From Naegleria gruberi (taxonomy: Eukaryota): a DNA stretch of 64,000 bases. The DNA lies in NCBI GenBank assembly GCA_000004985.1, contig GG738899.1; one strand, 5' to 3'. Below are positions 1,045-18,237 of this stretch, piece after piece (the stretch's first letter is position 1; every line of letters starts with the position of its first letter). The notes beneath the pieces were generated by a model, which was not told the DNA's origin, searched no databases, and saw only the letters and a list, made by a program, of their open reading frames with translations. Made by a program: the position numbers and the translations under genes.

Positions 1045-2172
1045 ATGTCGCAAGAATATTCAGCGATCGTGCTAGATAATGGCTCTTGCTCCATCAAAGC
1101 AGGTTTTTCAGGATGTGAGAATCCACAAGTAGTTTTTCCATCACTCATTGCTTCTCCTTTAAAATCCAAAGAATCTGAAAATATCAAAGAAATATACCTT
1201 GTGGGAGATGAAGCTAAAATTGACAGTAGAAAGAATGTTATGGTCAGATATCCAATAGAACATGGAGTAGTGACGAATTGGGAGGGGATGGAACAGATTT
1301 GGCGTCATGTTTTTAGTCAATTACAGGTGGATTGTGAAAATCATCCTGTTTTATTGACTCAACCTCCTTGTAATCCAAAACAAAATAGAGAAAAGATGAC
1401 TGAAATAATGTTCGAAACATTTAGAATACCATCCATGTATGTTTCTATTCCTGCTGTATTGTCCTTGTTTGCAACTGGGAGGACAACTGGAATAGTTTTA
1501 GATTCTGGAGATGGTGCGACGAATATTGTTCCAATTTTTGAATCACATGCTTTAGAATATGCTGTTAGGAGATTGGATTGGGCAGGTCGTGATTTGGATT
1601 ATTATATGTCTAGAATTCTAAGTGAAAGAGGGTTCTCATTCTTTACACGAGAGGAAATGGACATTGTGAGGGAAATTAAGGAAAAACTGTGTTATGTTGC
1701 ATTGGATTTTGATAAAGAAATGGAAAATACATCAAATAGCTTGGATGTTGATTATGAATTACCAGATGGTAACATTCTCACGATAGGAAATGAAAGGTTT
1801 CGATGCCCAGAAGTGTTTTTCAAACCACACTTAATAGGAATTGAAGAACAAGGCATTCATGAGGTGATAATTAATTCAATTGGAAAGTGTGATGTGGATA
1901 TAGGACATTTGAACTTGTATGGGAATGTAGTTCTTTCAGGAGGATCCACAATGTTTACAGGAATTGGAAAGAGGCTACAAAAGGAATTATCTGAACTAGC
2001 TCCTTACTCTATGAAAATTTCGGTTGTTGATTCCCTAGGGTTTGATAGGAAATTTTTGTCATGGATTGGAGGTAGTATCCTATCATCAATGACTGCATTT
2101 CAATCTGATTGGATAGTATCAAGAGAATATAAAGAAGTTGGAAGTAGCATCGTTCACAGAAAGTGTTTCTAA
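1045..2172 (+). CDS. divergent actin / actin-like protein (375 aa, single exon)
   Basis: True ATG. Full-length colinear match to actin landmarks (DNGSG-like N-terminus, [75 protein letters not shown] at the C-terminus). By eye about 60% identical to conventional actin. Confidence 0.85.
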
Positions 2173-2217: not shown

Positions 2218-5052
2218 TTACTTTTTGAAAATCAACTTTTTGGAAATCCACTCATTCATATCGGCTTCATTAACATTTTCATTCACTGCCTGTTCAATTA
2301 ATTCTGGAATATCAAAGTTGTTATCACTCATTACTAATTTCATATTCAATAAAGCTTGATGGTAGAATTGTTTAGTTTTCACAAGAACTTCCTCAGTCAA
2401 GTTTACAACCTTTTCTTGGAGAGGAGCCAATTCAGTTTCTAATTGAGCCTTTTGTTGAATGAGCTTATTTTCACTTTCCTTTTCAAGAGTTTGTTTTTGC
2501 TTTTGTAATTCTTCTTCCATTTTTTGTTGGAGTTTTCTTTCTGATTCCTGGTTTTCATTTCTCAAAGTTTCGAGTGCCTTTTCGTATTCTTCCTTCAAGA
2601 TAGATGATTGCTTGTTGAAATTTCTTTCAACATCTTCAACAGTTTGTTCATGCTTTTGGTTCCAAAGATTCTTTTCATTTTCCATTTCAAGGAGCCATTT
2701 TTCTCTTTCGATAGAAATTAATTCTTGAACATCTTGTTTCCATTTGATTTGTTCTTGTTGAAGGACTTGGGCAATTCTGTTTTCGATGGCTAGTTTTCTT
2801 TCTTGTTCCTCTTCTGCAGAACGTTTCAGATCGACTGTAGGTTGTGAGCTATTCTTCTCCAATTGCTTGGATTTCTCATCAAGTTCCTTTTCCCTTGTTT
2901 CCAAATTGAGTTGGAGTCTTTCACAGAATTCAGATAATTCCTTGTTGTGTTCTTCCTTTTCTTCAATTTGACTCTTTAAAGAATTTGTTTGTTGTTCTAG
3001 CTCTGCTTTTTCCTTTTGGATAATTTCCAAAGTTTCAGTTAAATTCTTAACTGAGTCTTCCTTTTGTAGATTGTTAAAGCTCTCCTTCTTGAGTTCGATA
3101 ATTAATTCATCCTTATAGGAAATGTCCTTTCTGAGCTCTTCCAATTCTTGACTCAGAATAATGATTTGTTGTTGGTAATCATCTTCCAATTCCTTCATGT
3201 GCTCTTCCATAAGTTTGAGAGCATTATCTGTTGGTTGTGTTGATTCAGAGCTTGCTGTTTGAGTATTATCATCTGAGGAATCACTCTTATTGATAACAGA
3301 GTTCAATTGTTGCATCATTGAGGATGTGAATTGAGCTGATCTTCTACTGGACATGACTGAAAACTCATCATTTCCGAGAGCTGACAAGTTGATAGAAAAT
3401 CTATTACTAGATCTTGGTGTTGTGACAGAGGAGCTTCCACTTGATTGTGAAGGGAAAATTTGCTCTGCATTCTCAATCAAAAATCTACAGACTTGACAAA
3501 TAATTGGTAGAGTTTGTTGTTGCTTTTGTAAGTGAGCACGAATGGACATTCTCTTGAAATCATCCAACACAACAGCGACAGATGATTGAGGGACGAACAT
3601 TAAATTAGTAGACATGACAATAGCCATAGTCTTTGGTGTCATTTTAGTGTCATTGGCATACTCACCAATAGAGGCCATTCTCAAAATACTCAACAATTCT
3701 CTCAGAACTGCTTGATTGACCTGAGGTAGAGTGTGAACAAGTCTCTTAGTTGATTCCAAAACATGGAAATAGTCCTTACTGGCTTCTTGTGTAATTCCAT
3801 CTACATCAGCATGAGGTTCAAACAATCGAATGAATTCATCGTATTTCTCATAACTCAACAATGGATCTTGCATTTCACGAAGGAAACGTTTGATGAGATC
3901 AGCAACCAAGTGAGCATCTGTATTTGGAGGGAAATGAATTCCATTAGGGAAAATAGTTGGGAAGGCCAACAAGGTATTGAACTTTTTCATAAACTTTTCA
4001 ATCTTGACCTTGGATCCAGCTTGTCTGAAGATTCCTTCATTGGCCACACGTGGAGTTTGACTTGAAGGATCGTTGGACTTTAAAAAGTGGAAACAAGCTC
4101 TCAAAACAAAAGGAATTTTCACATCTCTCAACAGGTACAATGTTGGTTCTTTCACATGCAAACGTTCTTCATCTGTCAGTGATGCATATAATGTGTCAAT
4201 ATTCTTCAAATCTACATTATTTGCACAGAGTGAGAGTGTTTGGGGTGAGAGAACAGTTAGTGGACTGAGAAGTGTTGTGAATGGAGTCTTTTTTCTAGAT
4301 TCAATCTCTGAAATAATCCAATTACTATTTAAGGTGTTATAAGTCTTTAAACTCTTCATTAAAAAGTGGAAATTGAAAAGAGTTTCATTCTTACAAATAG
4401 TTTGTAAGTAATTTCCAAATACTTTAGCTTTGAAAGGTGCACAATTTGGGAATAATTCCAAATAAAGAGTGTCAATTGTTGGTGGTTGATTATCAGCTGA
4501 AATCAAATGATAACTATGAGCATATTCCTTCATGGAAAATACAGTTGATTTCATCTTGATGAATTCTCTCTTCATTTCTCCATCATTCATCTCATCAGAA
4601 TCATTAGAAGTAGTACTTTGATGTGAAGTATTCTTTGAAACTAAACCTTCTGAAATATCTTGTTTATCATAGTAGAAACTTCCTGGAATACTCTTTCTCT
4701 TCTTTCCTCCACCGTATACCATTCCAACCAAGTTTGCTCCAAAACTCTTCATTCTGTCATGTTTTGATGAACTAGCGTCATTAGAAACACTTGACATATC
4801 AGAAGTGTCATCACTCAAACCAACAACCATTTCTGAAGAAATATTTGATGTAGTTGTCATGACAAAACACGAATTTTGTGGGAAAATCATTTGAAGATCA
4901 TCTTGTAATTGTAGTAAAATATCGTTAAAAGTTGTTTGTTTTGATTTCTTCCCATTCAATTCGAAAGTTTTTGTGTGGAGAACAGAATTTGATTGATCGG
5001 TAGGAGAAAGTTCAATATACAATCGAATTTTTGTTAAATTATTTGAGGACAT
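2218..5052 (-). CDS. RhoGAP-domain protein with long C-terminal coiled coil (944 aa); a short unannotated 5' exon is possible
   Basis: ATG at 5052. RhoGAP arginine-finger region (EGIFRQAGS...KIEKF) followed by HLVADLIKRFLREMQDPLL. The C-terminal ~350 aa is E/K/Q-rich heptad-like sequence. The frame stays open upstream of the ATG, so the start is not certain. Confidence 0.7.
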   Translation of the reverse strand: MSSNNLTKIRLYIELSPTDQSNSVLHTKTFELNGKKSKQTTFNDILLQLQDDLQMIFPQNSCFVMTTTSNISSEMVVGLSDDTSDMSSVSNDASSSKHDRMKSFGANLVGMVYGGGKKRKSIPGSFYYDKQDISEGLVSKNTSHQSTTSNDSDEMNDGEMKREFIKMKSTVFSMKEYAHSYHLISADNQPPTIDTLYLELFPNCAPFKAKVFGNYLQTICKNETLFNFHFLMKSLKTYNTLNSNWIISEIESRKKTPFTTLLSPLTVLSPQTLSLCANNVDLKNIDTLYASLTDEERLHVKEPTLYLLRDVKIPFVLRACFHFLKSNDPSSQTPRVANEGIFRQAGSKVKIEKFMKKFNTLLAFPTIFPNGIHFPPNTDAHLVADLIKRFLREMQDPLLSYEKYDEFIRLFEPHADVDGITQEASKDYFHVLESTKRLVHTLPQVNQAVLRELLSILRMASIGEYANDTKMTPKTMAIVMSTNLMFVPQSSVAVVLDDFKRMSIRAHLQKQQQTLPIICQVCRFLIENAEQIFPSQSSGSSSVTTPRSSNRFSINLSALGNDEFSVMSSRRSAQFTSSMMQQLNSVINKSDSSDDNTQTASSESTQPTDNALKLMEEHMKELEDDYQQQIIILSQELEELRKDISYKDELIIELKKESFNNLQKEDSVKNLTETLEIIQKEKAELEQQTNSLKSQIEEKEEHNKELSEFCERLQLNLETREKELDEKSKQLEKNSSQPTVDLKRSAEEEQERKLAIENRIAQVLQQEQIKWKQDVQELISIEREKWLLEMENEKNLWNQKHEQTVEDVERNFNKQSSILKEEYEKALETLRNENQESERKLQQKMEEELQKQKQTLEKESENKLIQQKAQLETELAPLQEKVVNLTEEVLVKTKQFYHQALLNMKLVMSDNNFDIPELIEQAVNENVNEADMNEWISKKLIFKK

Positions 5053-6094: not shown

Positions 6095-6412
<318 letters not shown>

Positions 6413-6772: not shown

Positions 6773-8420
6773 ATGCTACCATCATCCGATACTAACAAAC
6801 CAAACAATACTTGTTACGAAATTGCAGGTGTTGGCTTTGCTGTTGCCCCCAAGACAGATTGCCCACACTTTGACTCTGAAGAGCACTTTGCTGTCCCATG
6901 GAATGATAGAAAGGCCATCAAGGAACTCTTCACAAAGGATGCTCCGTGTAGACATTGCCACTCCACAGCAGAGAATTGGTTCTGTCTCAAGTGCCAAGAT
7001 GTTTGTTGCTCTCGTTACCAGAAGAGCCACATGTTGCATCACTATGAAAAGACTGGTCATGCTTTGGTGTTGAGTTTAGCCGATCATTCATTGTATTGCT
7101 ATGAATGTGATGCCTATGTAGAGAACAAGACTTTAACAAGATTGCTCTTGAGAGAGTTACATCATGTAAAGTTTGGAGAATATCCAGGTGCTAATGGAGC
7201 CTCAGTAGAGATGGAAGAAGCCATTGAAAAGTTGAGAAATGTCTCTGAAGCCATTGAAGAGGAGAAGAAGAAGGTTGATTCGGAGAAGGAAAAAGCCTTT
7301 GAAATTCTAGCTGAAAAGATTCAAAGTGCCTCTGATGAATCAATTATTGTATTGACTGGAGCTGGATTGTCCACTAGGTAGGTTTATTCATTATTATTAT
7401 CCTTATTATTGATTGTTAATATTATTATCATCATCATTATACTTGTTATAATATTCAATGATTCAATTGTAATATTTAAATATTATTAATGATAATAATT
7501 GGATAGTGCTGGAATTCCTGATTTTAGAACTCCTGGAACTGGATTGTATGATAATTTACAAAAGTATAATTTGCCTCATCCAACAGCCATTTTCGAGTTG
7601 AAATATCTTCCAACTAATCCTCATCCATTCTTCCATTTGAGTAGAGATTTCATTTCTTCTGGATATAAACCAACTAAAGCTCACTACTTTATCAAATTGT
7701 TGGAAGAAAAGAACAAGTTGAAGAGATTATATACTCAAAATATTGATGGTTTGGAAGCCAAGTCAGGTAGGTTTGTCAATATTACAGAATATTTATTGTG
7801 ACAATTTTCAATCATTTAAAGGAATTACAAAGGAGCACTTGGTAAATTGTCACGGAATGTACGATATTGGTCACTGTATTGAATGTTCAAAGGAATATTC
7901 ATTGTCTGAAATTGTAAAAAAGATGGGAACTGATGAAGAAGTCCAAATTCCAAAGTGTGACAAGTGTGGACATATTGTCAAACCAGATATTGTCTTGTTC
8001 GGAGAGTCATTACCTAACAAATACGTAGATTGTTGCAAATCAGATTTGCTTCGTTCCAAGGATTGTGAAGTCTTCATTGTCATTGGTACTTCCTTGTCAG
8101 TCTAGTAAGTAATTGAATTATTTTTTTATTGACCTAATAATTGTAAAAATAGTCCTGTTGCTGGTTTACCAGAATATGCTCCAGAAGGATCAACACGTGC
8201 TCTTCTTAATCGTGAAAAATGTGGACCTTTCAGTAAGGTGAAAGGAAATGTTGCTGAAGTTGGAGATGATTCAGATTATTTGGATTTGTTCCTTGGTGGA
8301 GAGGATTCATCCATTGATGAATGTGTTGAAAAATTATGTAAATTATTAGGATGGGAAGCTGAATTGGAGGAATTATATGTTAAAGGACCAGTCGATCTCG
8401 TAGAATTGAGTAAGAAATAA
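6773..8420 (+). CDS. sirtuin (SIRT2-class NAD-dependent deacetylase) with an N-terminal zf-UBP zinc finger; 4 exons: 6773-7377, 7507-7766, 7822-8104, 8153-8420 (~472 aa)
   Basis: Exon 1 has a zf-UBP Cys/His pattern (CPHF...W.CLKC..V.C.RY...H...H....GH...........YCYECD). Splicing at GTAGGT(7378)...AG(7506) restores [21 protein letters not shown]. Exon 2 contains TQNIDGLE. Splicing at GTAGGT(7767)...AG(7821) continues into HG..D..HC..C. Splicing at GTAAGT(8105)...AG(8152) continues into the C-terminal sirtuin helices. Without these introns the frame hits stops. Confidence 0.8.
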
Positions 8421-8629: not shown

Positions 8630-9439
8630 ATGGTGTTTCGTCTCTTCTCAAAGATTCGAACAGTTGATGCTAATGATGACCTTTCAACTGTTTCAGAACA
8701 AGAATCTCACGTTCCAGTTCCAGTGGTAGTTTCTGTTAAAGTTTCACCATTAAAAATTACACAACATTCTCTCAAAATATTAGAAAAAGTAAATAGGGAT
8801 GAATTATTAATTGTTGGATGTTTTCTAAATACTTCCGAGCTAGCAAATCTTGCTTCATGTAATCAACAATTACTGGAATTTTTCTTTAATTTGACAATTG
8901 ACAAGGTCAATTTAATAGCAAACAGGAAAAAAGAATTCTCAACTGTGAACATGGATTCAAGAATTGTTTCAATCAAGGATGTTTACCAAGAGAATGATGA
9001 ATTATTCTCAACAACTCAAACAATAATTTGGAAACCACTTGTTCTACATTATTTTCCAAGTTATTCGAAATCTCTGAATGTGAAAAATTGGATGCACATA
9101 TTAAGGAGAAGATTCACCCACCTTCAGATACACATGCCAAGATCCAAAAACCAAAACCAAATTCAAATAATTGGCGGTACTGATAAATATCAAAGGGAAT
9201 TCGTTGAAGGTTGCGAATGGGAATACGAATGTCCACTCAAAATCACCTCAATGACTTTCATTTCCGAGGAAATGGTGTTTTGCAATGTTTGTAAGGAGAA
9301 TATTTACAAAGTTCATAATGAAACTGATTTGAACTATCACACCGAACAAGGACATTGTGTAATTCTAACCGAAAAAAAACGACTTAGAATTGGAAAGACG
9401 TATAATCCTAATTATCATAAACTTCCTGCTGTTCGTTAA
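8630..9439 (+). CDS. hypothetical protein (269 aa) with a possible F-box-like N-terminal region and a C-terminal C2H2-like zinc finger
   Basis: True ATG, single ORF. C..C...............H....H spacing near the C-terminus. No strong family call. Confidence 0.45.
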   Translation: MVFRLFSKIRTVDANDDLSTVSEQESHVPVPVVVSVKVSPLKITQHSLKILEKVNRDELLIVGCFLNTSELANLASCNQQLLEFFFNLTIDKVNLIANRKKEFSTVNMDSRIVSIKDVYQENDELFSTTQTIIWKPLVLHYFPSYSKSLNVKNWMHILRRRFTHLQIHMPRSKNQNQIQIIGGTDKYQREFVEGCEWEYECPLKITSMTFISEEMVFCNVCKENIYKVHNETDLNYHTEQGHCVILTEKKRLRIGKTYNPNYHKLPAVR

Positions 9440-9748: not shown

Positions 9749-9866
9749 GGCTACGGCCATATCACGATTCATGCACCTCATCCCGTCCGATTTGAGAAGT
9801 TAAGCATCGTCGAGCCACATCAGTACTGAGGTTGGAGACAACTTGGGAACCTGTGGTGCTGTAGTC
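9749..9866 (+). rRNA. 5S ribosomal RNA gene, copy 1 (118 nt)
   Basis: GGCTACGGCCATATCACG...CCGTCCGATTTGAGAAGTTAAGC...GTACTGAGGTTGGAGACAACTTGGGAACCTGTGGTGCTGTAGTC matches the 5S consensus architecture (helix I ends pair, loop C GAGAAGTTAAGC region). It is followed by a T6 Pol III terminator. Confidence 0.9.
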
Positions 9867-9872
9867 TTTTTT
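9867..9872 (+). terminator. Pol III T-run terminator of 5S copy 1
   Basis: TTTTTT immediately after the 5S 3' end. Confidence 0.7.
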
Positions 9873-9971
9873 ATTTTTTCTCTATTTCTATTTTTCTGTG
9901 ATATAAAGCACCTTAATTAATATCAGTTGTGGACTAGATCTATTAGCAACTTATTTTCTTCTTGAATAACT

Positions 9972-10043
9972 TCCCGTGTAGTCCAATGGCTAGGATACCT
10001 GGCTTTCACCCAGGAGGTCCGGGTTCAATTCCCGGCATGGGAG
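9972..10043 (+). tRNA. tRNA-Glu (anticodon UUC), copy 1, 72 nt
   Basis: Cloverleaf: acceptor TCCCGTG/CATGGGA, D arm GTCC..GGAT, anticodon stem CCTGG/CCAGG with loop CTTTCAC (UUC), T arm CCGGG-TTCAATT-CCCGG. 105 nt downstream of 5S copy 1. Confidence 0.9.
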
Positions 10044-10117
10044 GATAATTTTGCAAAAGATAATTTATTTGGTAACCTTTTATTAATGGAAAGGGTTATT
10101 GAAATGGAACAGTTGAC

Positions 10118-10612
10118 TTAATCAATAATGGTTTTCTTTAACTTTTCTTCAATTTCTTCCTTTTGCTTTTTCACACTTTCAGCTTGTTGTTTCAAACTTT
10201 CAATTCGATTATTGAGTTGATCACTGATGGTTCCTCCCAATAACAACACAGTTTCATTTTGTGCATTCATTTCTTTCTGAACCATTTCTAATTCTATTAA
10301 CATGTATTCTAATTGCATAGACATCTCTTGGAAGTCTTCAGCTTTTCTCTTTTTCATTTCTATCATTTCAATGAATTGTTTCTTGACATTTTCAATTTCG
10401 AATAATTCTTGTGATGCTTGTTCAACTCTATAAGCTTTTTCTCCGATCACTTTCGAATAATTCTTGATCAAGGTTCTCCAAAAGGTTTCTGATTGAACCA
10501 ATTGTTCATGAATTTTTTTGTTGATCGAAAGAATATTTCCCAAATGTTTAACGGAGAGAATGGAAAATATTTCAATTTGCAACTCGGAGGGAAGATCAAC
10601 AAAGTTTGACAT
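10118..10612 (-). CDS. small F-box-like / coiled-coil protein (164 aa)
   Basis: True ATG. N-terminal LPSELQIEIFSILSVKHL F-box-like motif, with the rest predicted coiled coil. Confidence 0.5.
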   Translation of the reverse strand: MSNFVDLPSELQIEIFSILSVKHLGNILSINKKIHEQLVQSETFWRTLIKNYSKVIGEKAYRVEQASQELFEIENVKKQFIEMIEMKKRKAEDFQEMSMQLEYMLIELEMVQKEMNAQNETVLLLGGTISDQLNNRIESLKQQAESVKKQKEEIEEKLKKTIID

Positions 10613-11115: not shown

Positions 11116-13680
11116 ATGGTCAAGTTCAGTAAAGAAATACTCGAAAGGCTCTTACTCGACAGTAACAAGATTCGTAACATTAGTATTATTGCTCACGTTG
11201 ATCATGGTAAATCAACACTCACTGATCAATTGGCTTTAGCAGCTGGTTTAGTGGATGAAGATGCTGCAGGTGAGAAGAGAGTTTGCGACGTCGATAAGAA
11301 TGAAATTGAAAAGGGTATTACCATTAAATCAACAAGTTTGAGTATGGTATTGGAAAATCCAGACAAGGAGAATGATCATCATTTGGTTAATTTGATCGAT
11401 TGTCCAGGTCACATTGATTTCTCATCTGAAGTTAGTACAGCTTTGAGAATTACTGATGGTGCAGTGTTGATTGTTGATGCTGCTGAAGGTTGTAGAGGTC
11501 AAACTGAAACAGTAATTAGACAATCTCTTCAAGAAAGAATTCGTCCAGTTCTCTTCATTAATAAGGTTGACCGTTTGATTGAAGAAATGCAATTTACTGA
11601 AGAAGAAAGTTATCAAAACTTTTTAAGAATTATCGAGTCTGTGAATGCTCTATTATCAACTTATTCTGATGAGTCAGTTTCTGTTGATCCAGTTGACTGT
11701 AACATTGCTTTTGGATCAGGTAAGATGGGTTGGGCTTTCACTTTGGAGCAATTCGCTCAATTATATAGCAAGAAGTTTAAACTTCCTGTTGAGAAGGTTA
11801 TTAACAAATTATGGGGTGAAAATTATTATGATCACTCAACTAAGAAGTTTACCACTGAACCTTATTCATCGACAAGTGGTCAACAATTGAAACACACTTT
11901 CTGTGAATTCATTTTAGAACCTATTTTCAAGATTTTCAAGTTGGTTAGAGAACATCAAATTTCGAGTGAAGGTATTTTGCCAACAGATTTGGAAAATATC
12001 ATTAGTGCATTGTCTATACCTCTGACGAAAGAAGAAAAGAGAAAGGAGCCGAAACTTTTAGCTAAATCAATCATGAGAAAGTTCCTACCAGCTCACAAAC
12101 CTCTAGTTCAAATGATTATTAACCATTTACCTTCTCCTAAGGAAGCTAAAAAGGTCAGGTATGATAATCTCTACACTGGTGAAGATTTGACAGATCCATA
12201 CGCTACTGGTATTAAGGAATGTGATCCGAATGCACCACTGGTTGTCTATGTCAGTAAGATGGTACCTATGCACTCTAATACTAGCTCTAGTATGAGTAAT
12301 AATGTTGGTCGTTTTATTGCTTTAGCTCGTATCTTCTCTGGCAGTTTGACTCAATCAACTAAGGTAAGAATTCTGGGTCCTAACTATGATCCAATTGCTA
12401 AGAAAGATGTTTTCCATACAAGCATTCAAAGATTGTTAGTCATGGTTGGTAAAAATACTGAAAGCATCACTCAAGCTTCTTGTGGTGCCATCGTCGGTAT
12501 TGTTGGTCTTGACAAGTACATTATCAAATCATGTACATTGACAGAAGAAGGACAAGTTGCATGTATGCCAATTAAGAATATGAAATACTCTGTGAGTCCT
12601 GTTGTTCAAATGGGAGTTGAGCCAGCCAATCCAGCTGATTTATCTCGATTTGTTGAAGGTTTGAAACGTCTCGTTCAAAGTGATCCTCTATTGGAATGTA
12701 AGCAAAATGATAGTGGTCAACATATTCTAGGAACAGCAGGTGAATTGCATTTGGAAATTTGTTTAAAGAATTTGGAAGAAGAATATGCAAGAGGAATTCA
12801 AATTAAAAAGTCTCCTCCTGTTGTCACTTTCCACGAAACAGTTTCAAATAAGAATGGAGACATGGTCATGGCCAGAAGTGCAAACGGTCACAATCGTTTA
12901 TACATGCAAGCTGAACCAATCAGTGAGGAATTGATTGAAATGATTAAGGAAGGTCAATTGCCAATGGATGATCAAAATAAGAGAGCAAAGATTTTAGAAA
13001 TTGACTTTGAATGGGATCCTAGCATAACAAAGAGAATTTGGAGTTTTGGACCTGAAGCTGATAAGGGTAGTAACATTTTGGTTAATGCAACCAAGTCAGT
13101 TGACTATATTAATGAAATTCAACAATATGTTGTCACTAGTTTCCAACAAAGCAGTTCTTCAGGAGGTTTATGTGATGAAGCAATGAGAGGTGTTTTATTC
13201 AAATTTAATGATTGTAATCTTCATGCAGATTCTATCCATCGTGGAGCTGGTCAAATTCTCCAAGCAACATCACGTGTCATGACTGCTAGTCAATTGAGAG
13301 CTGATCCAAAGTTAGTTGAACCAATGTATCTTGTTGAAGTTCAATGTCCTCAATCAGTGATGGGTTCTGTCTATAGTGTCATTTCCAATAGAAGAGGTGT
13401 TATCAAATCTACTGAAATGGTAATTGGTACTCCTCTCGTTAGTATTACAGGTAATTTACCTGTGCTGGAAAGTTTCGGTTTAACAGAAGAGTTGAGAGGT
13501 GTGACTCAAGGACAAGCTTTCCCTCAATGCAGTTTCAGTCATTGGAAAGTAATGGAAGACAATGTTTATGATCCTCAATCTAAAGTTCACAAGCTCATCA
13601 AATCTATCAGAAAGAGAAAGGGTCTTAAGGAAGATATACCACTCTACACAGATTACTGTGATGCAATGCCTAAACAATAA
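11116..13680 (+). CDS. elongation factor 2 family GTPase (854 aa), divergent EF2-like
   Basis: True ATG. G1 AHVDHGKSTLTD, LIDCPGHIDF, NK.D, colinear EF2 domains II-V, and the diphthamide-loop region H.DSIHRGAGQI conserved. C-terminal ...RKRKGLKEDIP as in EF2. By eye only ~50-55% identical to canonical eEF2. Confidence 0.85.
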   Translation: MVKFSKEILERLLLDSNKIRNISIIAHVDHGKSTLTDQLALAAGLVDEDAAGEKRVCDVDKNEIEKGITIKSTSLSMVLENPDKENDHHLVNLIDCPGHIDFSSEVSTALRITDGAVLIVDAAEGCRGQTETVIRQSLQERIRPVLFINKVDRLIEEMQFTEEESYQNFLRIIESVNALLSTYSDESVSVDPVDCNIAFGSGKMGWAFTLEQFAQLYSKKFKLPVEKVINKLWGENYYDHSTKKFTTEPYSSTSGQQLKHTFCEFILEPIFKIFKLVREHQISSEGILPTDLENIISALSIPLTKEEKRKEPKLLAKSIMRKFLPAHKPLVQMIINHLPSPKEAKKVRYDNLYTGEDLTDPYATGIKECDPNAPLVVYVSKMVPMHSNTSSSMSNNVGRFIALARIFSGSLTQSTKVRILGPNYDPIAKKDVFHTSIQRLLVMVGKNTESITQASCGAIVGIVGLDKYIIKSCTLTEEGQVACMPIKNMKYSVSPVVQMGVEPANPADLSRFVEGLKRLVQSDPLLECKQNDSGQHILGTAGELHLEICLKNLEEEYARGIQIKKSPPVVTFHETVSNKNGDMVMARSANGHNRLYMQAEPISEELIEMIKEGQLPMDDQNKRAKILEIDFEWDPSITKRIWSFGPEADKGSNILVNATKSVDYINEIQQYVVTSFQQSSSSGGLCDEAMRGVLFKFNDCNLHADSIHRGAGQILQATSRVMTASQLRADPKLVEPMYLVEVQCPQSVMGSVYSVISNRRGVIKSTEMVIGTPLVSITGNLPVLESFGLTEELRGVTQGQAFPQCSFSHWKVMEDNVYDPQSKVHKLIKSIRKRKGLKEDIPLYTDYCDAMPKQ

Positions 13681-14019: not shown

Positions 14020-14100
14020 TGCAGAAGGTGGGATTTGAACCCACGAAGCTTGCGCAGTAGAACTTGAGTCTACCCCCTTTGACCACTCGGGAACCCCTGC
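14020..14100 (-). tRNA. tRNA-Leu (anticodon CAA), type II with long variable arm, 81 nt
   Basis: The reverse complement folds with acceptor GCAGGGG/CCTTCTGC, anticodon stem GTAGA/TCTAC with loop CTCAAGT (CAA, G37), a long variable arm, and T arm GTGGG-TTCAAAT-CCCAC. Confidence 0.8.
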
Positions 14101-15303
14101 TTCATATAATCTTATAAACCTGGTTGTTCACTTTGAATATACCAACATTCTGTATTTTCAAGTTAGCCCATTGCTCACCTTAGCATCTTATTTTCATTAT
14201 CTTCCACAATATTCTTTATCATCTTTATTCGCCTTGAAACCAATCCTTAATTTATTCTCCCAGCTTATTCAACTATTTTCTTGAATTGAATTTCCAATTT
14301 TCCCAATTTTTTAACCATAACTTTTCCTCGCAACATTTCACACTTTCACAACCAATATAACATCATTGAGGATGCAAGATTGAAAAAACCATTGACTGTA
14401 CTTCTACAGGATCTTTTCTGTAGGAATACATAAACTCGACTTTTTTGAGTCAATCTGACCTTTGAGGTTAACCAAGATGAAGACTCTGTAGTCACATATC
14501 TTGAGCATGATATCGAACTGGAAACATGCTTCGTTGTAGGTTTCCTCGTTCATAGATGATTGCTGCATTCCTTACCAGCCATGGTTTGTGAATGGGGGAT
14601 TTGTGAACATGCAGATTGGTACCTTAAACTTTTTATCAATTAAAAGAAAAATATTACAACTATGCCCGAGAGCTGCCAATTAAACTCTATAACAAAACTT
14701 TCCTTTTATTATTAATCAACATGGCCCGTCGTATCTTCATTGCACTGTATTGGAGTTAGGGTTTTATTTTGTCTTGGAAAGCAAATATTTGAAGACTCAA
14801 ATTCGAAATTTGAAGGTTTATTGATCAACCACAAGTTTCTCTTTCTAAATAGATAAAATTCAAAGGTGATAAATATATGGTCACGTTGCAAGTTCTTCTA
14901 AACAATAACTTACTGAACCAACAATCAATAGATTCGTTGCCTTCACTGTTCATACAGTCAAAGACTGTAGCGGGATTGTCGCCATATTCCTGGCAGGCTT
15001 CCCGTCTAATTTACCAATTGAACAATATCACAACATATTCCCTTTTACTGTATTCCTGTAATAAGGGCAGTACATTGATGTAAAAGCTTTCTTAAAAGTT
15101 ATCAGGTTTCTCCTGTTGATTATTGTTTGATAAGAAATAATTACCATTAAGGCAAATTCATTTAAAATTACAATCCATTAGTTCCTGACAAATAACTATG
15201 CATGAATTTGTGACTTATGGCCAAACTGTAGGATAAAATCATTTTGTTAAAAAAAATGAAACATTTGGTGCAGATTTATATTGCAGAAATTAGGTTAATT
15301 GAT

Positions 15304-15421
15304 GGCTACGGCCATATCACGATGAATGCACCTCATCCCGTCCGATTTGAGAAGTTAAGCATCGTCGAGCCACATCAGTACTGAGGTTGGAGACAACTTG
15401 GGAACCTGTGGTGCTGTAGTC
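15304..15421 (+). rRNA. 5S ribosomal RNA gene, copy 2 (118 nt), identical to copy 1 apart from flanks
   Basis: Same sequence as copy 1. T7 run follows at 15422-15428. Lies 39 nt from the stop codon of the convergent cyclase gene. Confidence 0.9.
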
Positions 15422-15428
15422 TTTTTTT
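15422..15428 (+). terminator. Pol III T-run terminator of 5S copy 2
   Basis: TTTTTTT immediately after the 5S 3' end. Confidence 0.7.
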
Positions 15429-15459: not shown

Positions 15460-17901
15460 TTAAAGTAAGTCTTGAAGTGAATCACTGCAATTCTCCTCAG
15501 GCAACAATTGCAACAATCGTTTAGACCTTTCGAATAAATTTAGAACAATTGGCGAATCACTCCAAACATTAGCCAATCTTTCACACAAGCAATACAATTG
15601 GAAATAGTGCTGAGAGAACAACAAATCCCTTACCAGCAACAAATCCTTTTCCATCTTCTTCTCATATTCAGAGGCCTCATTCCTGAATGCTACTAAATTG
15701 TAAATGCAAGTTGAATTACTCTTTCCTCTCAATTTGAGTAGATCAACAAAGTGAAAGATAAATTCCTCCCTCACCTTATCAACAATCTCACCACTCACAA
15801 GGATGGAACCAAAGTTTTGAGCGAGTGATTGTAATCTTAATGCAATGTTACACTCGTCACCAATTACTGTAAATGACATTCTGCTCTTACTGCCCAAACA
15901 ACCAACAAGCATTTCACCACATGTAATTCCAATAGAAATATCCAATTGAATACCCATTAGAATCTTCCATTTAGAGTTCAAATCCTCAATTACTTCCATG
16001 CATTCAATGGCAGTTTTACAAGCTCTTGATTCATGATTTGCACATCTGAATGATTTTTCATTCCAAAATACCATTACAGTACCCTCAATGAATTTATCAA
16101 TAATTCCACAATGGGCCTCAATGACCTGTGATATGGAGCTATAATATTCTGTAATGATTCGAATAAATGCTGTAGTTTCGGTCTTTTCAGAAAGTGTTGC
16201 AAAATTATTGATACCACAATACAGAACTGTCATGCTCGGTTCTAATTTCATACCAATTTTACCGTACTCTTGCTTATTTGAAACAATCATCTTGGCAATA
16301 ATGTGTGGAACATACTTGCTGAATGCAAATATTCCTCTTTGGGTGATTTGAATATTTTCGTCCATTTCCTTGATTTCACTGAAAATTGTAACATGTTTCT
16401 TGTATGGAGTTTCTAAACCTTTGAATGAAATGAGATGATTCATTTGCTTGGTAATGTCTATCAGTGGTTGATTAATTGATTGAACAACGCATAAAACAAT
16501 TAAGGTTTCTAATACAAAAAAAATGATAAATAAAATTACAGAAACAACACCAGAAGAAATGACCTCGGAGAAATATGTCTTCTCCAAACTCGTCGTGACC
16601 ACAGTGCATGTCAGATTGTAGGTATCCCTCACTGTTGAAACTTCTACAATTTTCCCCTTATAATGAAATATGTGAGATTCGTTTGCATTCAGATTCAAGT
16701 TGTTTAAATCAGAGCGATGAATTTCTTCAGAAATATCATCAATAGATGGATCGTTCTCACTGCTTCTTGCAAAAATACCTCCAGTTCCATTGATAATGAA
16801 TGAACTGTATAGAAGAGCTGTGGATGAGTTCGCAACATTGACATTTTGAATTTTGAATTCCAAAGCAACTATTCCAAATAAATAATCATTATGTGCACCC
16901 TTCATACGCTCTAATTCCTCAACTTGAATGGCATGAAGAGTGGAATTACCTCCTGACAATGTATAATTTCTTACTGGAATATGACTATATATGGGATAGA
17001 CAAAAAAAACTGAATATAAACCCTCCTCGTTCAAGGAAGCACTTGTCCAACATGGTCCAGCTACCTTCTTCGACTGCCTAATCTCTCTGTACCAATCACA
17101 ATCGGTTGGTGATGAATTAATTGACTGGTTTTCTGCCTTGCTGTCAACCAAATCTAAATCATCATATGACAACAGGTGTGAATTCGTATCTCTTATTCTA
17201 TACGTTAAACGAATATGCTCCTCTTCTGAAGAATTATTTGGAAACTTTCCAGTTTCGAACAAATTATGATTTTTAAATATCAAGTAATAATCGTCAAATC
17301 TTACAAATTGAATGGAAACTAGTTGAGTACTGGTAAGCATTCTGTCAGTGGCTCTTATTACTCGCATCCATTCAATTTGTTTGTCCAATTCCATCATTTT
17401 CCCAATAAATAAATTGTAAAACATCAAGTCAACCAGATTTCTAGCAGAATTGTGAATTTTCACAACTCTCATTCTCAATCTGTACGTAGTTTCCCATCTT
17501 TCATATCCACTTGTGCTTTTGTAAATCTCAGATCCACTTGAGAAGAGCAAAACGAAAGAAGCCAAAATTCCAAAGAATGTTTGAAACACAAACAAGACGA
17601 AAATTAAATTCATAATTCGGAAACCATATCTAGTGCAGTTTAGTCCACATTCTCCACATTTTGTTTGATGGTTCTTCTTCTTTGATTTCTTTAGAGACAA
17701 TATTTGACTTTTTGATTCAGTTTCGTTTGTTTCTTCTTTTGCATTGTAGCGATGAATTATTGGAAACTCATTACCATCATCGCTATCAAAATCAGATGAG
17801 AACGCATCCATGAAATCTAATCTAGACTGTTTTCTCATTTTCCCTCCTCCAATAATTGATTCTCTTCTGTTTTGATGTTTTCCATTCGTGTGTGAAAACA
17901 T
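15460..17901 (-). CDS. receptor-type class III adenylyl/guanylyl cyclase (813 aa): cytosolic N-terminus, TM, ~330-aa extracellular domain, TM, C-terminal cyclase catalytic domain
   Basis: True ATG. Two strong hydrophobic helices. The C-terminal domain has cyclase signatures (VLYCGINNFATLSE, ...SFTVIGDECNIALRLQSLAQNFGSILVSGEIV...). The architecture resembles sensor cyclases of the Dictyostelium ACG type. Confidence 0.75.
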   Translation of the reverse strand: MFSHTNGKHQNRRESIIGGGKMRKQSRLDFMDAFSSDFDSDDGNEFPIIHRYNAKEETNETESKSQILSLKKSKKKNHQTKCGECGLNCTRYGFRIMNLIFVLFVFQTFFGILASFVLLFSSGSEIYKSTSGYERWETTYRLRMRVVKIHNSARNLVDLMFYNLFIGKMMELDKQIEWMRVIRATDRMLTSTQLVSIQFVRFDDYYLIFKNHNLFETGKFPNNSSEEEHIRLTYRIRDTNSHLLSYDDLDLVDSKAENQSINSSPTDCDWYREIRQSKKVAGPCWTSASLNEEGLYSVFFVYPIYSHIPVRNYTLSGGNSTLHAIQVEELERMKGAHNDYLFGIVALEFKIQNVNVANSSTALLYSSFIINGTGGIFARSSENDPSIDDISEEIHRSDLNNLNLNANESHIFHYKGKIVEVSTVRDTYNLTCTVVTTSLEKTYFSEVISSGVVSVILFIIFFVLETLIVLCVVQSINQPLIDITKQMNHLISFKGLETPYKKHVTIFSEIKEMDENIQITQRGIFAFSKYVPHIIAKMIVSNKQEYGKIGMKLEPSMTVLYCGINNFATLSEKTETTAFIRIITEYYSSISQVIEAHCGIIDKFIEGTVMVFWNEKSFRCANHESRACKTAIECMEVIEDLNSKWKILMGIQLDISIGITCGEMLVGCLGSKSRMSFTVIGDECNIALRLQSLAQNFGSILVSGEIVDKVREEFIFHFVDLLKLRGKSNSTCIYNLVAFRNEASEYEKKMEKDLLLVRDLLFSQHYFQLYCLCERLANVWSDSPIVLNLFERSKRLLQLLPEENCSDSLQDLL

Positions 17902-18165: not shown

Positions 18166-18237
18166 TCCCGTGTAGTCCAATGGCTAGGATACCTGGCTTT
18201 CACCCAGGAGGTCCGGGTTCAATTCCCGGCATGGGAG
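18166..18237 (+). tRNA. tRNA-Glu (anticodon UUC), copy 2, identical to copy 1
   Basis: Identical 72-nt sequence. Shared flanks with copy 1 (AATAAC..TCCCGTG upstream, GGATAATTTTGC.AAGATAATTT downstream). Confidence 0.9.

What the first reader, a model, noticed from the sequence alone, without database searches (positions are those of the whole stretch)
6773..8420. zf-UBP zinc finger fused to a SIRT2-class sirtuin, joined by three short introns
Exon 1 encodes a complete zf-UBP-type Cys/His finger (the ubiquitin-C-terminus-binding finger of HDAC6 and USPs). Exons 2-4 encode a SIRT2-like catalytic core. HDAC6 (zf-UBP + HDAC) and SIRT2 are the two classical tubulin deacetylases in animals. A zf-UBP-sirtuin fusion is an independent way to build the same logic and is not a textbook architecture. 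The four-exon model is strongly supported, because every unspliced reading hits a stop and every junction restores a sirtuin signature.
Basis: partly seen in the sequence, partly recalled or inferred. Interest (0 to 1): 0.55.

Follow-up and report, generated by a model that had tools for sequence, protein, structure and literature searches.

The report
Known Naegleria zf-UBP–sirtuin fusion gene
This is a correctly read but already annotated Naegleria gruberi gene. It encodes a SIRT2-like deacetylase with an HDAC6-like ubiquitin-tail-binding zinc finger at its N-terminus, an architecture published for Tetrahymena in 2011 and found in many protists and chytrid fungi.

Summary
The four-exon model (6773-7377, 7507-7766, 7822-8104, 8153-8420) gives a 471-aa protein with a complete zf-UBP finger (Pfam E 3e-18) and a complete SIR2 domain (E 4e-55). 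Human SIRT2 is the best solved relative. An intronless Willaertia magna orthologue reads straight through all three junctions without an indel.

It is not new. The 471-aa product is letter-for-letter XP_002672211.1 / UniProt D2VUK6 of Naegleria gruberi. The same architecture was described and cDNA-verified in Tetrahymena Thd14 (2011). Dictyostelium Sir2A is another member. 83 of the 120 best database hits carry both domains, spanning Discoba, Amoebozoa, ciliates, stramenopiles, red algae and chytrids.

The finger is specifically HDAC6-like. All 12 zinc ligands and the Arg/Tyr pair needed for binding ubiquitin's free C-terminus are conserved. The most likely function is an NAD-dependent deacylase recruited or regulated by free ubiquitin C-termini. 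This is inferred and untested.

The tubulin-deacetylase analogy has no support: Thd14 is in mitochondria and nucleoli, and Sir2A is found across the whole cell. "Independent" invention is doubtful, because the two fingers are each other's closest solved relatives. Interest is low.

The parts
6773..7377 (+). Exon 1 (aa 1-202, split codon). Encodes the N-terminal Cys30/His32 zinc pair, the zf-UBP finger (aa 59-120), the long linker helix (aa 140-185), and the first sirtuin strand with GAGLST.
   Evidence: The first in-frame ATG is at 6773. The N-terminus aligns with the N. fowleri orthologue.
7378..7506 (+). Intron 1, 129 nt, GTAGGT...AG, GC 0.16, phase 2. It splits the Ser202 codon (AG|T).
   Evidence: Read-through gives a TAG stop at 7379-7381. 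The junction restores [14 protein letters not shown], which is colinear with SIRT2 and with the intronless Willaertia ORF.
7507..7766 (+). Exon 2 (aa 202-289). Encodes the NAD-binding loop IPDFR, the helical module and TQNID.
7767..7821 (+). Intron 2, 55 nt, GTAGGT...AG, GC 0.24, phase 1. It splits the Gly289 codon.
   Evidence: The read-through stop ends at 7801. The junction is colinear in the Willaertia, N. fowleri and N. lovaniensis orthologues.
7822..8104 (+). Exon 3 (aa 289-383). Encodes the catalytic His299 (CHG), the zinc ribbon Cys307/310/334/337 and GTSL.
   Evidence: H299 and the four Cys are invariant in 53 family members.
8105..8152 (+). Intron 3, 48 nt, GTAAGT...AG, GC 0.17, phase 2. 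It splits the Tyr383 codon.
   Evidence: The read-through TAG lies at 8103-8105. The junction is colinear with the orthologues.
8153..8420 (+). Exon 4 (aa 383-471 plus TAA). Encodes the end of the Rossmann fold and the C-terminal segment that matches SIRT2 and Hst2 (LGWE..ELEEL).
   Evidence: The SIRT2 and Hst2 alignments run to aa 456-458, whereas the SIRT3 alignments stop at aa 422.

Best explanation
What it is. A single, ordinary, already annotated protein-coding gene of Naegleria gruberi (XP_002672211.1 / D2VUK6). It is the Naegleria member of the Thd14 / Sir2A family: a class-I (SIRT2/SIRT3/Hst2-type) NAD+-dependent lysine deacylase with an N-terminal three-zinc ZnF-UBP domain of the HDAC6 subtype, joined by a roughly 45-residue helix.

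Shown here:
- The exon structure and both domains.
- Every catalytic and zinc-binding residue of the sirtuin core.
- All 12 zinc ligands of the finger.
- The pocket residues that in HDAC6 clasp the free C-terminal Gly-Gly of ubiquitin.

Inferred:
- The finger binds unanchored ubiquitin (or ubiquitin-like) C-termini.
- That binding either recruits the deacylase to ubiquitin-marked material, as in HDAC6, or switches its activity allosterically, as ubiquitin binding to the ZnF-UBP does in USP5.
- The substrates are unknown. A dedicated tubulin role is not supported.
For: - Exact identity of the spliced product to the deposited N. gruberi protein.
- Pfam hits for both domains over their full profiles.
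- SIRT2 is the best solved relative by sequence (246 bits, against 205 for SIRT3, 201 for Hst2 and 141 for SIRT1). It is also the top-ranked solved fold (Foldseek TM 0.85 normalised to target, 44% identity), with SIRT3 close behind (TM about 0.9, 39% identity). The AF2 model has mean pLDDT 89.9.
- Invariant in 53 family members: G196 A197 G198 S200 R209 Q279 N280 D282 H299 C307 C310 C334 C337.
- Finger zinc ligands, matching HDAC6 C1113 H1115 C1133 C1136 C1145 C1148 C1153 H1160 H1164 H1170 C1183 C1186: C30 H32 C59 C62 C71 C74 C79 H86 H90 H96 C109 C112.
- Pocket residues: R81 = R1155, Y82 = Y1156, Y110 = Y1184, Y115 = Y1189, W69 = W1143. Y108 replaces W1182, which is W in 72 of 87 family members.
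- R1155A/Y1184A abolishes ubiquitin binding in HDAC6. R1155 and Y1156 are the gatekeepers over the Gly-Gly (PMC3268394; PMC10424181).
- HDAC6 is the best solved match of the finger, by single sequence and by family profile.
- The fusion is one ORF in Willaertia. It is one cDNA in Tetrahymena (HQ156951) and in Dictyostelium Sir2A.
- Thd14 deacetylates histone peptides in vitro.
Against: - No experiment on the Naegleria protein exists in the searched literature.
- Ubiquitin binding has not been tested for any member. Slade et al. left it to future work.
- W1182 is Tyr in the Naegleria/Willaertia proteins. This could lower affinity, although by my own knowledge USP5 has Tyr259 at the equivalent position and binds ubiquitin.
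- Some ZnF-UBP domains (yeast Ubp8, USP39) are structural and do not bind ubiquitin.
- The AF2 pTM of 0.71 says nothing reliable about how the two domains communicate.
Confidence: 0.85

Rival explanations
1. It is an HDAC6 analogue. A ubiquitin-sensing tubulin (alpha-tubulin K40) deacetylase was assembled independently from a sirtuin instead of a zinc HDAC.
For: - The catalytic core is closest to SIRT2, which is a tubulin deacetylase in animals (North et al. 2003, cited in PMC7376869).
- The finger is the HDAC6 subtype with an intact pocket.
Against: - The characterised orthologues are not microtubule-associated. Thd14 is in mitochondria, nucleoli and the degrading macronucleus and acts on histone peptides. 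Flag-Sir2A is spread across the whole cell.
- The family is present in Galdieria. Red algae lack flagella and centrioles (my own knowledge), so its distribution does not follow cilia or K40 acetylation.
- 'Independent' is doubtful, because the HDAC6 finger is the closest solved relative of this finger.
Confidence: 0.1
2. Exon 1 is a separate small zf-UBP gene, and the sirtuin starts at exon 2, as in the partial GenBank record XP_002668581.1.
For: - A 269-aa 'partial' N. gruberi record starts exactly at exon 2.
- The exon 1 ORF ends with a stop 4 nt into intron 1.
Against: - Exon 1 already holds the first strand and the GAGLST of the Rossmann fold. Aa 149-201 align with SIRT2 residues 40-92.
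- The sirtuin would lack its NAD-binding glycine loop without exon 1.
- The full 471-aa record exists.
- The Willaertia orthologue is one ORF.
- The N. fowleri, N. lovaniensis and Acrasis orthologues, Thd14 and Sir2A are all fused.
Confidence: 0.01
3. The finger is a structural or protein-interaction module that no longer binds ubiquitin, like the ZnF-UBP of Ubp8 in SAGA or of USP39/Sad1.
For: - Such ZnF-UBPs exist among the PDB hits (Ubp8, USP39).
- W1182 is replaced by Tyr in the Naegleria protein.
Against: - Pocket residues are conserved across 87 family members: Arg in 82, the Y1184 equivalent Tyr in 76 (Phe in 6), the W1182 equivalent aromatic W/Y/F in 86. This argues for selection on the pocket.
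- The profile scores Ubp8 and USP39 far below HDAC6.
Confidence: 0.2

Closest known systems
Tetrahymena thermophila Thd14 (TTHERM_00526990; Slade et al. 2011, BMC Cell Biol 12:40, PMC3191509)
   Same: - N-terminal UBP-type zinc finger followed by a class-I sirtuin in one polypeptide.
- Both are 471 aa, with 36% identity over 97% of the length (P0095).
- Slade et al. report that Thd14 keeps all the essential ubiquitin-binding residues of the HDAC6 finger.
   Different: - Different supergroup (ciliate against heterolobosean).
- Thd14 has Trp at the W1182 position; Naegleria has Tyr.
- Localisation and activity are known only for Thd14.
Dictyostelium discoideum Sir2A (DDB_G0283917)
   Same: ZnF-UBP followed by a SIRT2-like core. 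P0054 starts MYAVNPI, which matches the published Sir2A cloning primer.
   Different: - Dictyostelium has a long low-complexity Ser/Thr/Glu linker of about 130 aa instead of a single helix.
- The first zinc pair reads C-I-H rather than C-P-H.
Human SIRT2 (for example PDB 5FYQ, 4R8M)
   Same: - Catalytic core 42-45% identical in the Foldseek alignments, TM 0.85.
- All catalytic and zinc residues are shared, as is the C-terminal LGW..ELE segment.
   Different: SIRT2 has no ZnF-UBP.
HDAC6 ZnF-UBP (BUZ/PAZ) domain (PDB 3C5K, 3GV4, 5G0F)
   Same: - Three-zinc fold with all 12 ligands.
- Arg/Tyr gatekeepers and the Tyr that hydrogen-bonds the terminal carboxylate.
- Best solved relative of the finger.
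   Different: - In HDAC6 it sits at the C-terminus of a zinc-dependent tandem deacetylase. Here it sits at the N-terminus of an NAD-dependent one.
- G1154 is Ser, W1182 is Tyr and I1177 is Ala in Naegleria.

Membership tests
Sirtuin (SIR2, PF02146), class I SIRT2/SIRT3/Hst2 type | Full-length match to the SIR2 profile above the curated cut-off | tested here: met
   187 bits against a cut-off of 24, profile positions 1-180 of 180.
Sirtuin (SIR2, PF02146), class I SIRT2/SIRT3/Hst2 type | Catalytic His of the HG motif, the GAGxS and xPDFR NAD-binding motifs, and TQNID | tested here: met
   H299, G196-A197-G198-L-S200, P206-D207-F208-R209 and Q279-N280-I-D282. All are invariant in 53 family members and aligned to SIRT2.
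Sirtuin (SIR2, PF02146), class I SIRT2/SIRT3/Hst2 type | Four-Cys zinc ribbon module | tested here: met
   C307, C310, C334 and C337 are invariant.
Sirtuin (SIR2, PF02146), class I SIRT2/SIRT3/Hst2 type | Closest to SIRT2 rather than to other classes | tested here: met
   - Sequence scores: SIRT2 246 bits, SIRT3 205, Hst2 201, SIRT1 141.
- Foldseek ranks SIRT2 first.
- My NJ tree of 108 cores does not resolve the deep branching, with bootstraps below 0.5.
Sirtuin (SIR2, PF02146), class I SIRT2/SIRT3/Hst2 type | NAD+-dependent deacylase activity | not testable with these tools
   Shown in vitro only for the orthologue Thd14 (PMC3191509).
ZnF-UBP (PF02148), HDAC6 subtype | Full-length match to the zf-UBP profile above the cut-off | tested here: met
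   66.2 bits against a cut-off of 22.7, profile positions 1-62 of 63.
ZnF-UBP (PF02148), HDAC6 subtype | Twelve Cys/His ligands for three zinc ions | tested here: met
   All 12 HDAC6 ligand positions are conserved in the model and in at least 82 of 87 family members. The list of HDAC6 ligands is from my own knowledge of PDB 3C5K.
ZnF-UBP (PF02148), HDAC6 subtype | Pocket residues for the free ubiquitin C-terminus (R1155, Y1156, W1182, Y1184) | tested here: met
   R81, Y82 and Y110 are identical. W1182 is Y108, a conservative aromatic change.
ZnF-UBP (PF02148), HDAC6 subtype | Binds unanchored ubiquitin | not testable with these tools
   No binding data exist for any sirtuin-linked finger.
Thd14 / Sir2A-type ZnF-UBP-sirtuin fusions | N-terminal ZnF-UBP and C-terminal class-I sirtuin on one polypeptide, homologous over the full length | tested here: met
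   - 36% identity over 97% of the length to Thd14 (P0095).
- 64% identity to N. fowleri and 59% to Willaertia.
- 83 of the 120 best hits carry both domains.
Tubulin deacetylases (a functional class: HDAC6, SIRT2) | Acts on acetyl-K40 of alpha-tubulin, or associates with microtubules | not testable with these tools
   There is only indirect evidence, and it points the other way: the localisation of the orthologues.

The most novel reading that the evidence does not exclude
The ZnF-UBP-SIRT2 fusion may be the ancestral eukaryotic form of SIRT2. On this reading the HDAC6 finger belongs to the same finger lineage. The module that senses free ubiquitin C-termini would then have been handed from an NAD-dependent to a zinc-dependent deacetylase (or the reverse) on the line to animals, which lost it from SIRT2. 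The HDAC6/SIRT2 pairing in animals would be a legacy of one ancient ubiquitin-coupled deacetylase and not a convergence.

Evidence that does not exclude it:
- The fusion occurs in Discoba, Amoebozoa, Alveolata, Stramenopiles, Rhodophyta and chytrid fungi.
- The family profile scores HDAC6 at 100-108 bits against 74 or less for any USP finger.

Not tested: a proper phylogeny of ZnF-UBP domains, and whether the protists that carry the fusion also have an HDAC6 with a finger.
Probability: 0.2. Interest if true: 0.45.

Novelty: already known. Interest (0 to 1): 0.15.

Why it matters
It matters little as a discovery. The gene, its exon structure and its two-domain architecture are in public databases, and the architecture has been in the literature since 2011.

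The value that remains is as a reminder of an untested question. No one has shown whether the sirtuin-linked finger binds ubiquitin, or what that binding does to a sirtuin. The family is broad enough that it may date to early eukaryotes. A binding assay on any member (Naegleria, Dictyostelium Sir2A or Tetrahymena Thd14) would settle whether ubiquitin-coupled deacetylation predates HDAC6.

Tried and rejected
- Direct transcript evidence. The short cluster members P0122-P0124 (100-119 aa) are about the size of the single-exon ORFs (compare the 100- and 120-aa ORFs), so they look like calls on unspliced genomic contigs and not transcripts; I did not check this.
- Finger-only homology search. The word search with aa 21-139 found a single hit, because the indexed cluster representative is the partial protein that lacks the finger. 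It could not show which non-sirtuin architectures are nearest. The PDB profile search was used instead.
- Core phylogeny. An NJ tree of 108 sirtuin cores with 200 bootstraps did not resolve deep nodes. It cannot say whether the fusion arose once, or whether animal SIRT2 is nested within the fused clade. It does show a 100%-supported Heterolobosea clade that mixes finger-bearing proteins and finger-less paralogues.
- Literature. Searches for the accession numbers, for zf-UBP + sirtuin and for PF02148 + PF02146 found no further treatment. A sirtuin-evolution paper and a review of protozoan sirtuins do not mention the finger.
- Separate-gene reading of exon 1. Considered and rejected (see the rival explanations).

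Full report
**What is in the sequence**

The window is AT-rich eukaryotic DNA, with GC about 0.34 throughout. Joining 6773-7377, 7507-7766, 7822-8104 and 8153-8420 gives a 1416-nt reading frame. It starts at the first in-frame ATG and ends at TAA, encoding 471 aa.

The three gaps begin with GTAGGT, GTAGGT and GTAAGT and all end in AG. They are 129, 55 and 48 nt long. Their GC is 0.16-0.24 against 0.33-0.42 in the exons. Without splicing, the frames stop at 7379-7381, 7799-7801 and 8103-8105 (ORF ends).

**Are the domains real?**

Pfam gives zf-UBP over the whole profile (aa 59-120, E 3.2e-18, 66 bits against a cut-off of 22.7). It gives SIR2 over the whole profile (aa 196-384, E 3.8e-55).

Against solved structures, the best matches to the whole protein are all human SIRT2 (E about 5e-72, 246 bits). 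SIRT3 follows at 205 bits, yeast Hst2 at 201 and SIRT1 at 141. The SIRT2 alignment runs from aa 149 to 458 and passes all three junctions without a gap.

An AlphaFold2 model built on 53 family members has mean pLDDT 89.9 and pTM 0.71. It shows a folded finger, one long helix (aa 140-185) and a sirtuin core. Foldseek ranks human SIRT2 first for that core, at TM 0.85 (target-normalised) and 44% identity, with SIRT3 close behind.

**Is it one gene?**

Yes, for four reasons.

- Exon 1 already contains the SIRT2-like N-terminal helix, the first Rossmann strand and GAGLST. Exon 2 alone would lack the NAD-binding glycine loop.
- Orthologues in N. fowleri (509 aa, 64% identity), N. lovaniensis (500 aa), Willaertia magna (465 aa, 59%) and Acrasis kona (439 aa) carry both domains.
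- The Willaertia gene is a single uninterrupted 1398-nt ORF (L001:4001-5398). It reads through all three Naegleria intron positions with no indel.
- The Tetrahymena and Dictyostelium members were cloned from cDNA.

I found no N. gruberi transcript data with these tools.

**Identity**

The 471-aa product is exactly XP_002672211.1 / EFC39467.1 / UniProt D2VUK6, named 'silent information regulator family protein [Naegleria gruberi]', on a 331-kb scaffold. A second record, XP_002668581.1, is a 269-aa partial on a 12-kb scaffold. It is the same protein from exon 2 onward.

**Prior knowledge of the architecture**

Slade et al. 2011 (PMC3191509) described Tetrahymena Thd14 as a class-Ib sirtuin with an N-terminal UBP-type zinc finger. 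They noted its strong homology to the HDAC6 PAZ/BUZ domain and that it keeps the ubiquitin-binding residues. They verified the coding sequence from cDNA (HQ156951) and showed histone-peptide deacetylase activity. They located the protein in mitochondria, nucleoli and the degrading parental macronucleus.

P0095 begins MSSEISKT, which matches their cloning primer, and is 36% identical to the Naegleria protein over 97% of its length. Dictyostelium Sir2A (DDB_G0283917) is another member. P0054 begins MYAVNPI, which matches the published Sir2A primer, and Flag-Sir2A is spread over the whole cell.

Of the 120 best database hits, 83 carry both domains. The named ones come from these groups:

| Group | Named examples |
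|---|---|
| Heterolobosea and Jakobida | Naegleria, Willaertia, Acrasis, Andalucia |
| Amoebozoa | Dictyostelium, Polysphondylium, Acytostelium, Tieghemostelium, Pelomyxa, Planoprotostelium |
| Ciliates | Tetrahymena, Paramecium |
| Stramenopiles | an ochromonad |
| Red algae | Galdieria |
| Chytrid fungi | Chytriomyces, Rhizoclosmatium, Podochytrium, Entophlyctis, Physocladia |

Animal SIRT2 proteins in the same list lack the finger.

**Anatomy of the finger**

I aligned 87 family fingers with human HDAC6 1109-1215. Its central part (about residues 1131-1209) is confirmed by the alignment, and the residue numbers fit those in the papers.

- All 12 zinc-ligand positions are conserved. In the model they are C30 H32 C59 C62 C71 C74 C79 H86 H90 H96 C109 C112.
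- The pocket residues are conserved too: R81 (R1155), Y82 (Y1156), Y110 (Y1184), Y115 (Y1189), W69 and D104.
- W1182 is Y108 in the Naegleria protein. It is Trp in 72 of 87 members, Tyr in 8 and Phe in 6.

In HDAC6, R1155 and Y1156 close over the buried Gly-Gly, and R1155A/Y1184A abolishes ubiquitin binding (PMC3268394; PMC10424181).

HDAC6 is by far the best solved relative of the finger. With the single sequence it scores 81 bits (zebrafish) and about 70 bits (human), against 55 for USP49 and 32 or less for other USPs. With a profile of 25 sirtuin-linked fingers, HDAC6 scores 100-108 bits. USP49 scores 74, USP33/20 score 47, USP16 scores 45, Ubp8 scores 28-39, and USP5 and USP39 score 21.

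**Sirtuin core**

G196 A197 G198 S200, R209, Q279 N280 D282, the catalytic H299 and the zinc-ribbon C307 C310 C334 C337 are invariant in 53 full-length family members. Nothing suggests an inactive enzyme.

**Phylogeny**

An NJ tree of 108 cores (267 columns, 200 bootstraps) is unresolved at depth. It does not separate finger-bearing sirtuins from animal SIRT2. It does show a Naegleria/Willaertia clade with bootstrap 1.00 that contains both the finger-bearing proteins and finger-less paralogues (P0004, P0006, P0007, P0008, P0011). That pattern suggests duplication followed by loss of the finger, or incomplete gene models for the finger-less ones. The tree cannot tell whether the fusion arose once.

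**How it most likely works**

- Shown: an intact class-I sirtuin active site and an intact HDAC6-type pocket for a free ubiquitin C-terminus lie on one chain, joined by a long helix.
- Inferred: the finger binds unanchored ubiquitin or ubiquitin-like C-termini. It then either brings the deacylase to such material, as in HDAC6, or gates its activity, as ubiquitin binding to the ZnF-UBP does in USP5 (the USP5 behaviour is from my own knowledge).
- I put about 0.6-0.7 on ubiquitin binding, given the family-wide conservation of the pocket.
- The substrates are unknown.

The tubulin idea rests only on analogy with animal SIRT2 and HDAC6. The two studied orthologues are not microtubule-associated. 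The family also occurs in Galdieria, and red algae have no flagella (my own knowledge).

**Verdict**

The feature is an ordinary, annotated gene with a published architecture, so novelty is 'already known' and interest is low.

The one idea worth keeping is evolutionary. The sirtuin-linked and HDAC6 fingers are each other's closest solved relatives, and the fusion is widespread outside animals. The HDAC6 arrangement may therefore descend from this older sirtuin arrangement, or share a source with it, and need not be an independent invention. That needs a proper domain phylogeny.

Noticed in passing
window 6101-6412 (+): An intronless histone H4 gene lies 360 nt upstream of the sirtuin, on the same strand. 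Its product ends ...LYGFGY, whereas I expected GFGG from memory. Pfam histone-fold hits.
   Followed up: partly
window 9749-9867, 15304-15422, 56205-56323 (+): Three dispersed 5S rRNA genes (100-105 bits). They are scattered among protein genes and not arranged in a tandem array. The first lies about 100 nt upstream of a tRNA-Glu.
   Followed up: no
window 14392-14620 (+); 9971-10044 (+); 18166-18237 (+); 14020-14100 (-): A U3 snoRNA gene (77 bits), two identically scoring tRNA-Glu(TTC) genes and one tRNA-Leu(CAA).
   Followed up: no
window 8630-9439 (+): A 269-aa ORF directly downstream of the sirtuin has no Pfam match at E 0.001 or better. Its C-terminal part is Cys/His-rich (CEWEYEC...CNVCKENIY...HTEQGHC). 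A 164-aa F-box-like ORF lies on the opposite strand at 10118-10612.
   Followed up: partly
window 1045-2172 (+), 2218-5052 (-), 11116-13680 (+), 15460-17901 (-): Gene-dense, mostly intronless neighbours: an actin-family protein (E 7e-121), a 944-aa RhoGAP protein with a long charged, repetitive tail, an EF-2/EF-G-type GTPase, and an 813-aa ORF that I did not run through Pfam.
   Followed up: partly
P0002 / XP_002668581.1 (N. gruberi, 12-kb scaffold): The reference assembly holds a second, partial copy of this gene that starts exactly at exon 2. It is probably an unmerged haplotype or a scaffold-edge fragment. It is the representative of the 90% cluster, and this hides the zinc finger from word-based searches.
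   Followed up: partly
P0004, P0006, P0008, P0011 (Naegleria paralogues): Naegleria species have SIRT2-like paralogues 54-71% identical to this core but without the finger. They group with the finger-bearing proteins at bootstrap 1.00. P0004 (N. lovaniensis) has a low-complexity Ser/Lys N-terminus where the finger would be. This is either a real loss or a mis-called first exon.
   Followed up: no
P0018 / P0019 (JGI, unnamed source): Two finger-bearing sirtuins have a finger that starts PLTWCPHL, very like human HDAC6 PLPWCPHL. They group at bootstrap 0.97 with finger-less cores. Their organism is unknown. If it is holozoan, they would bear on the domain hand-over idea.
   Followed up: no
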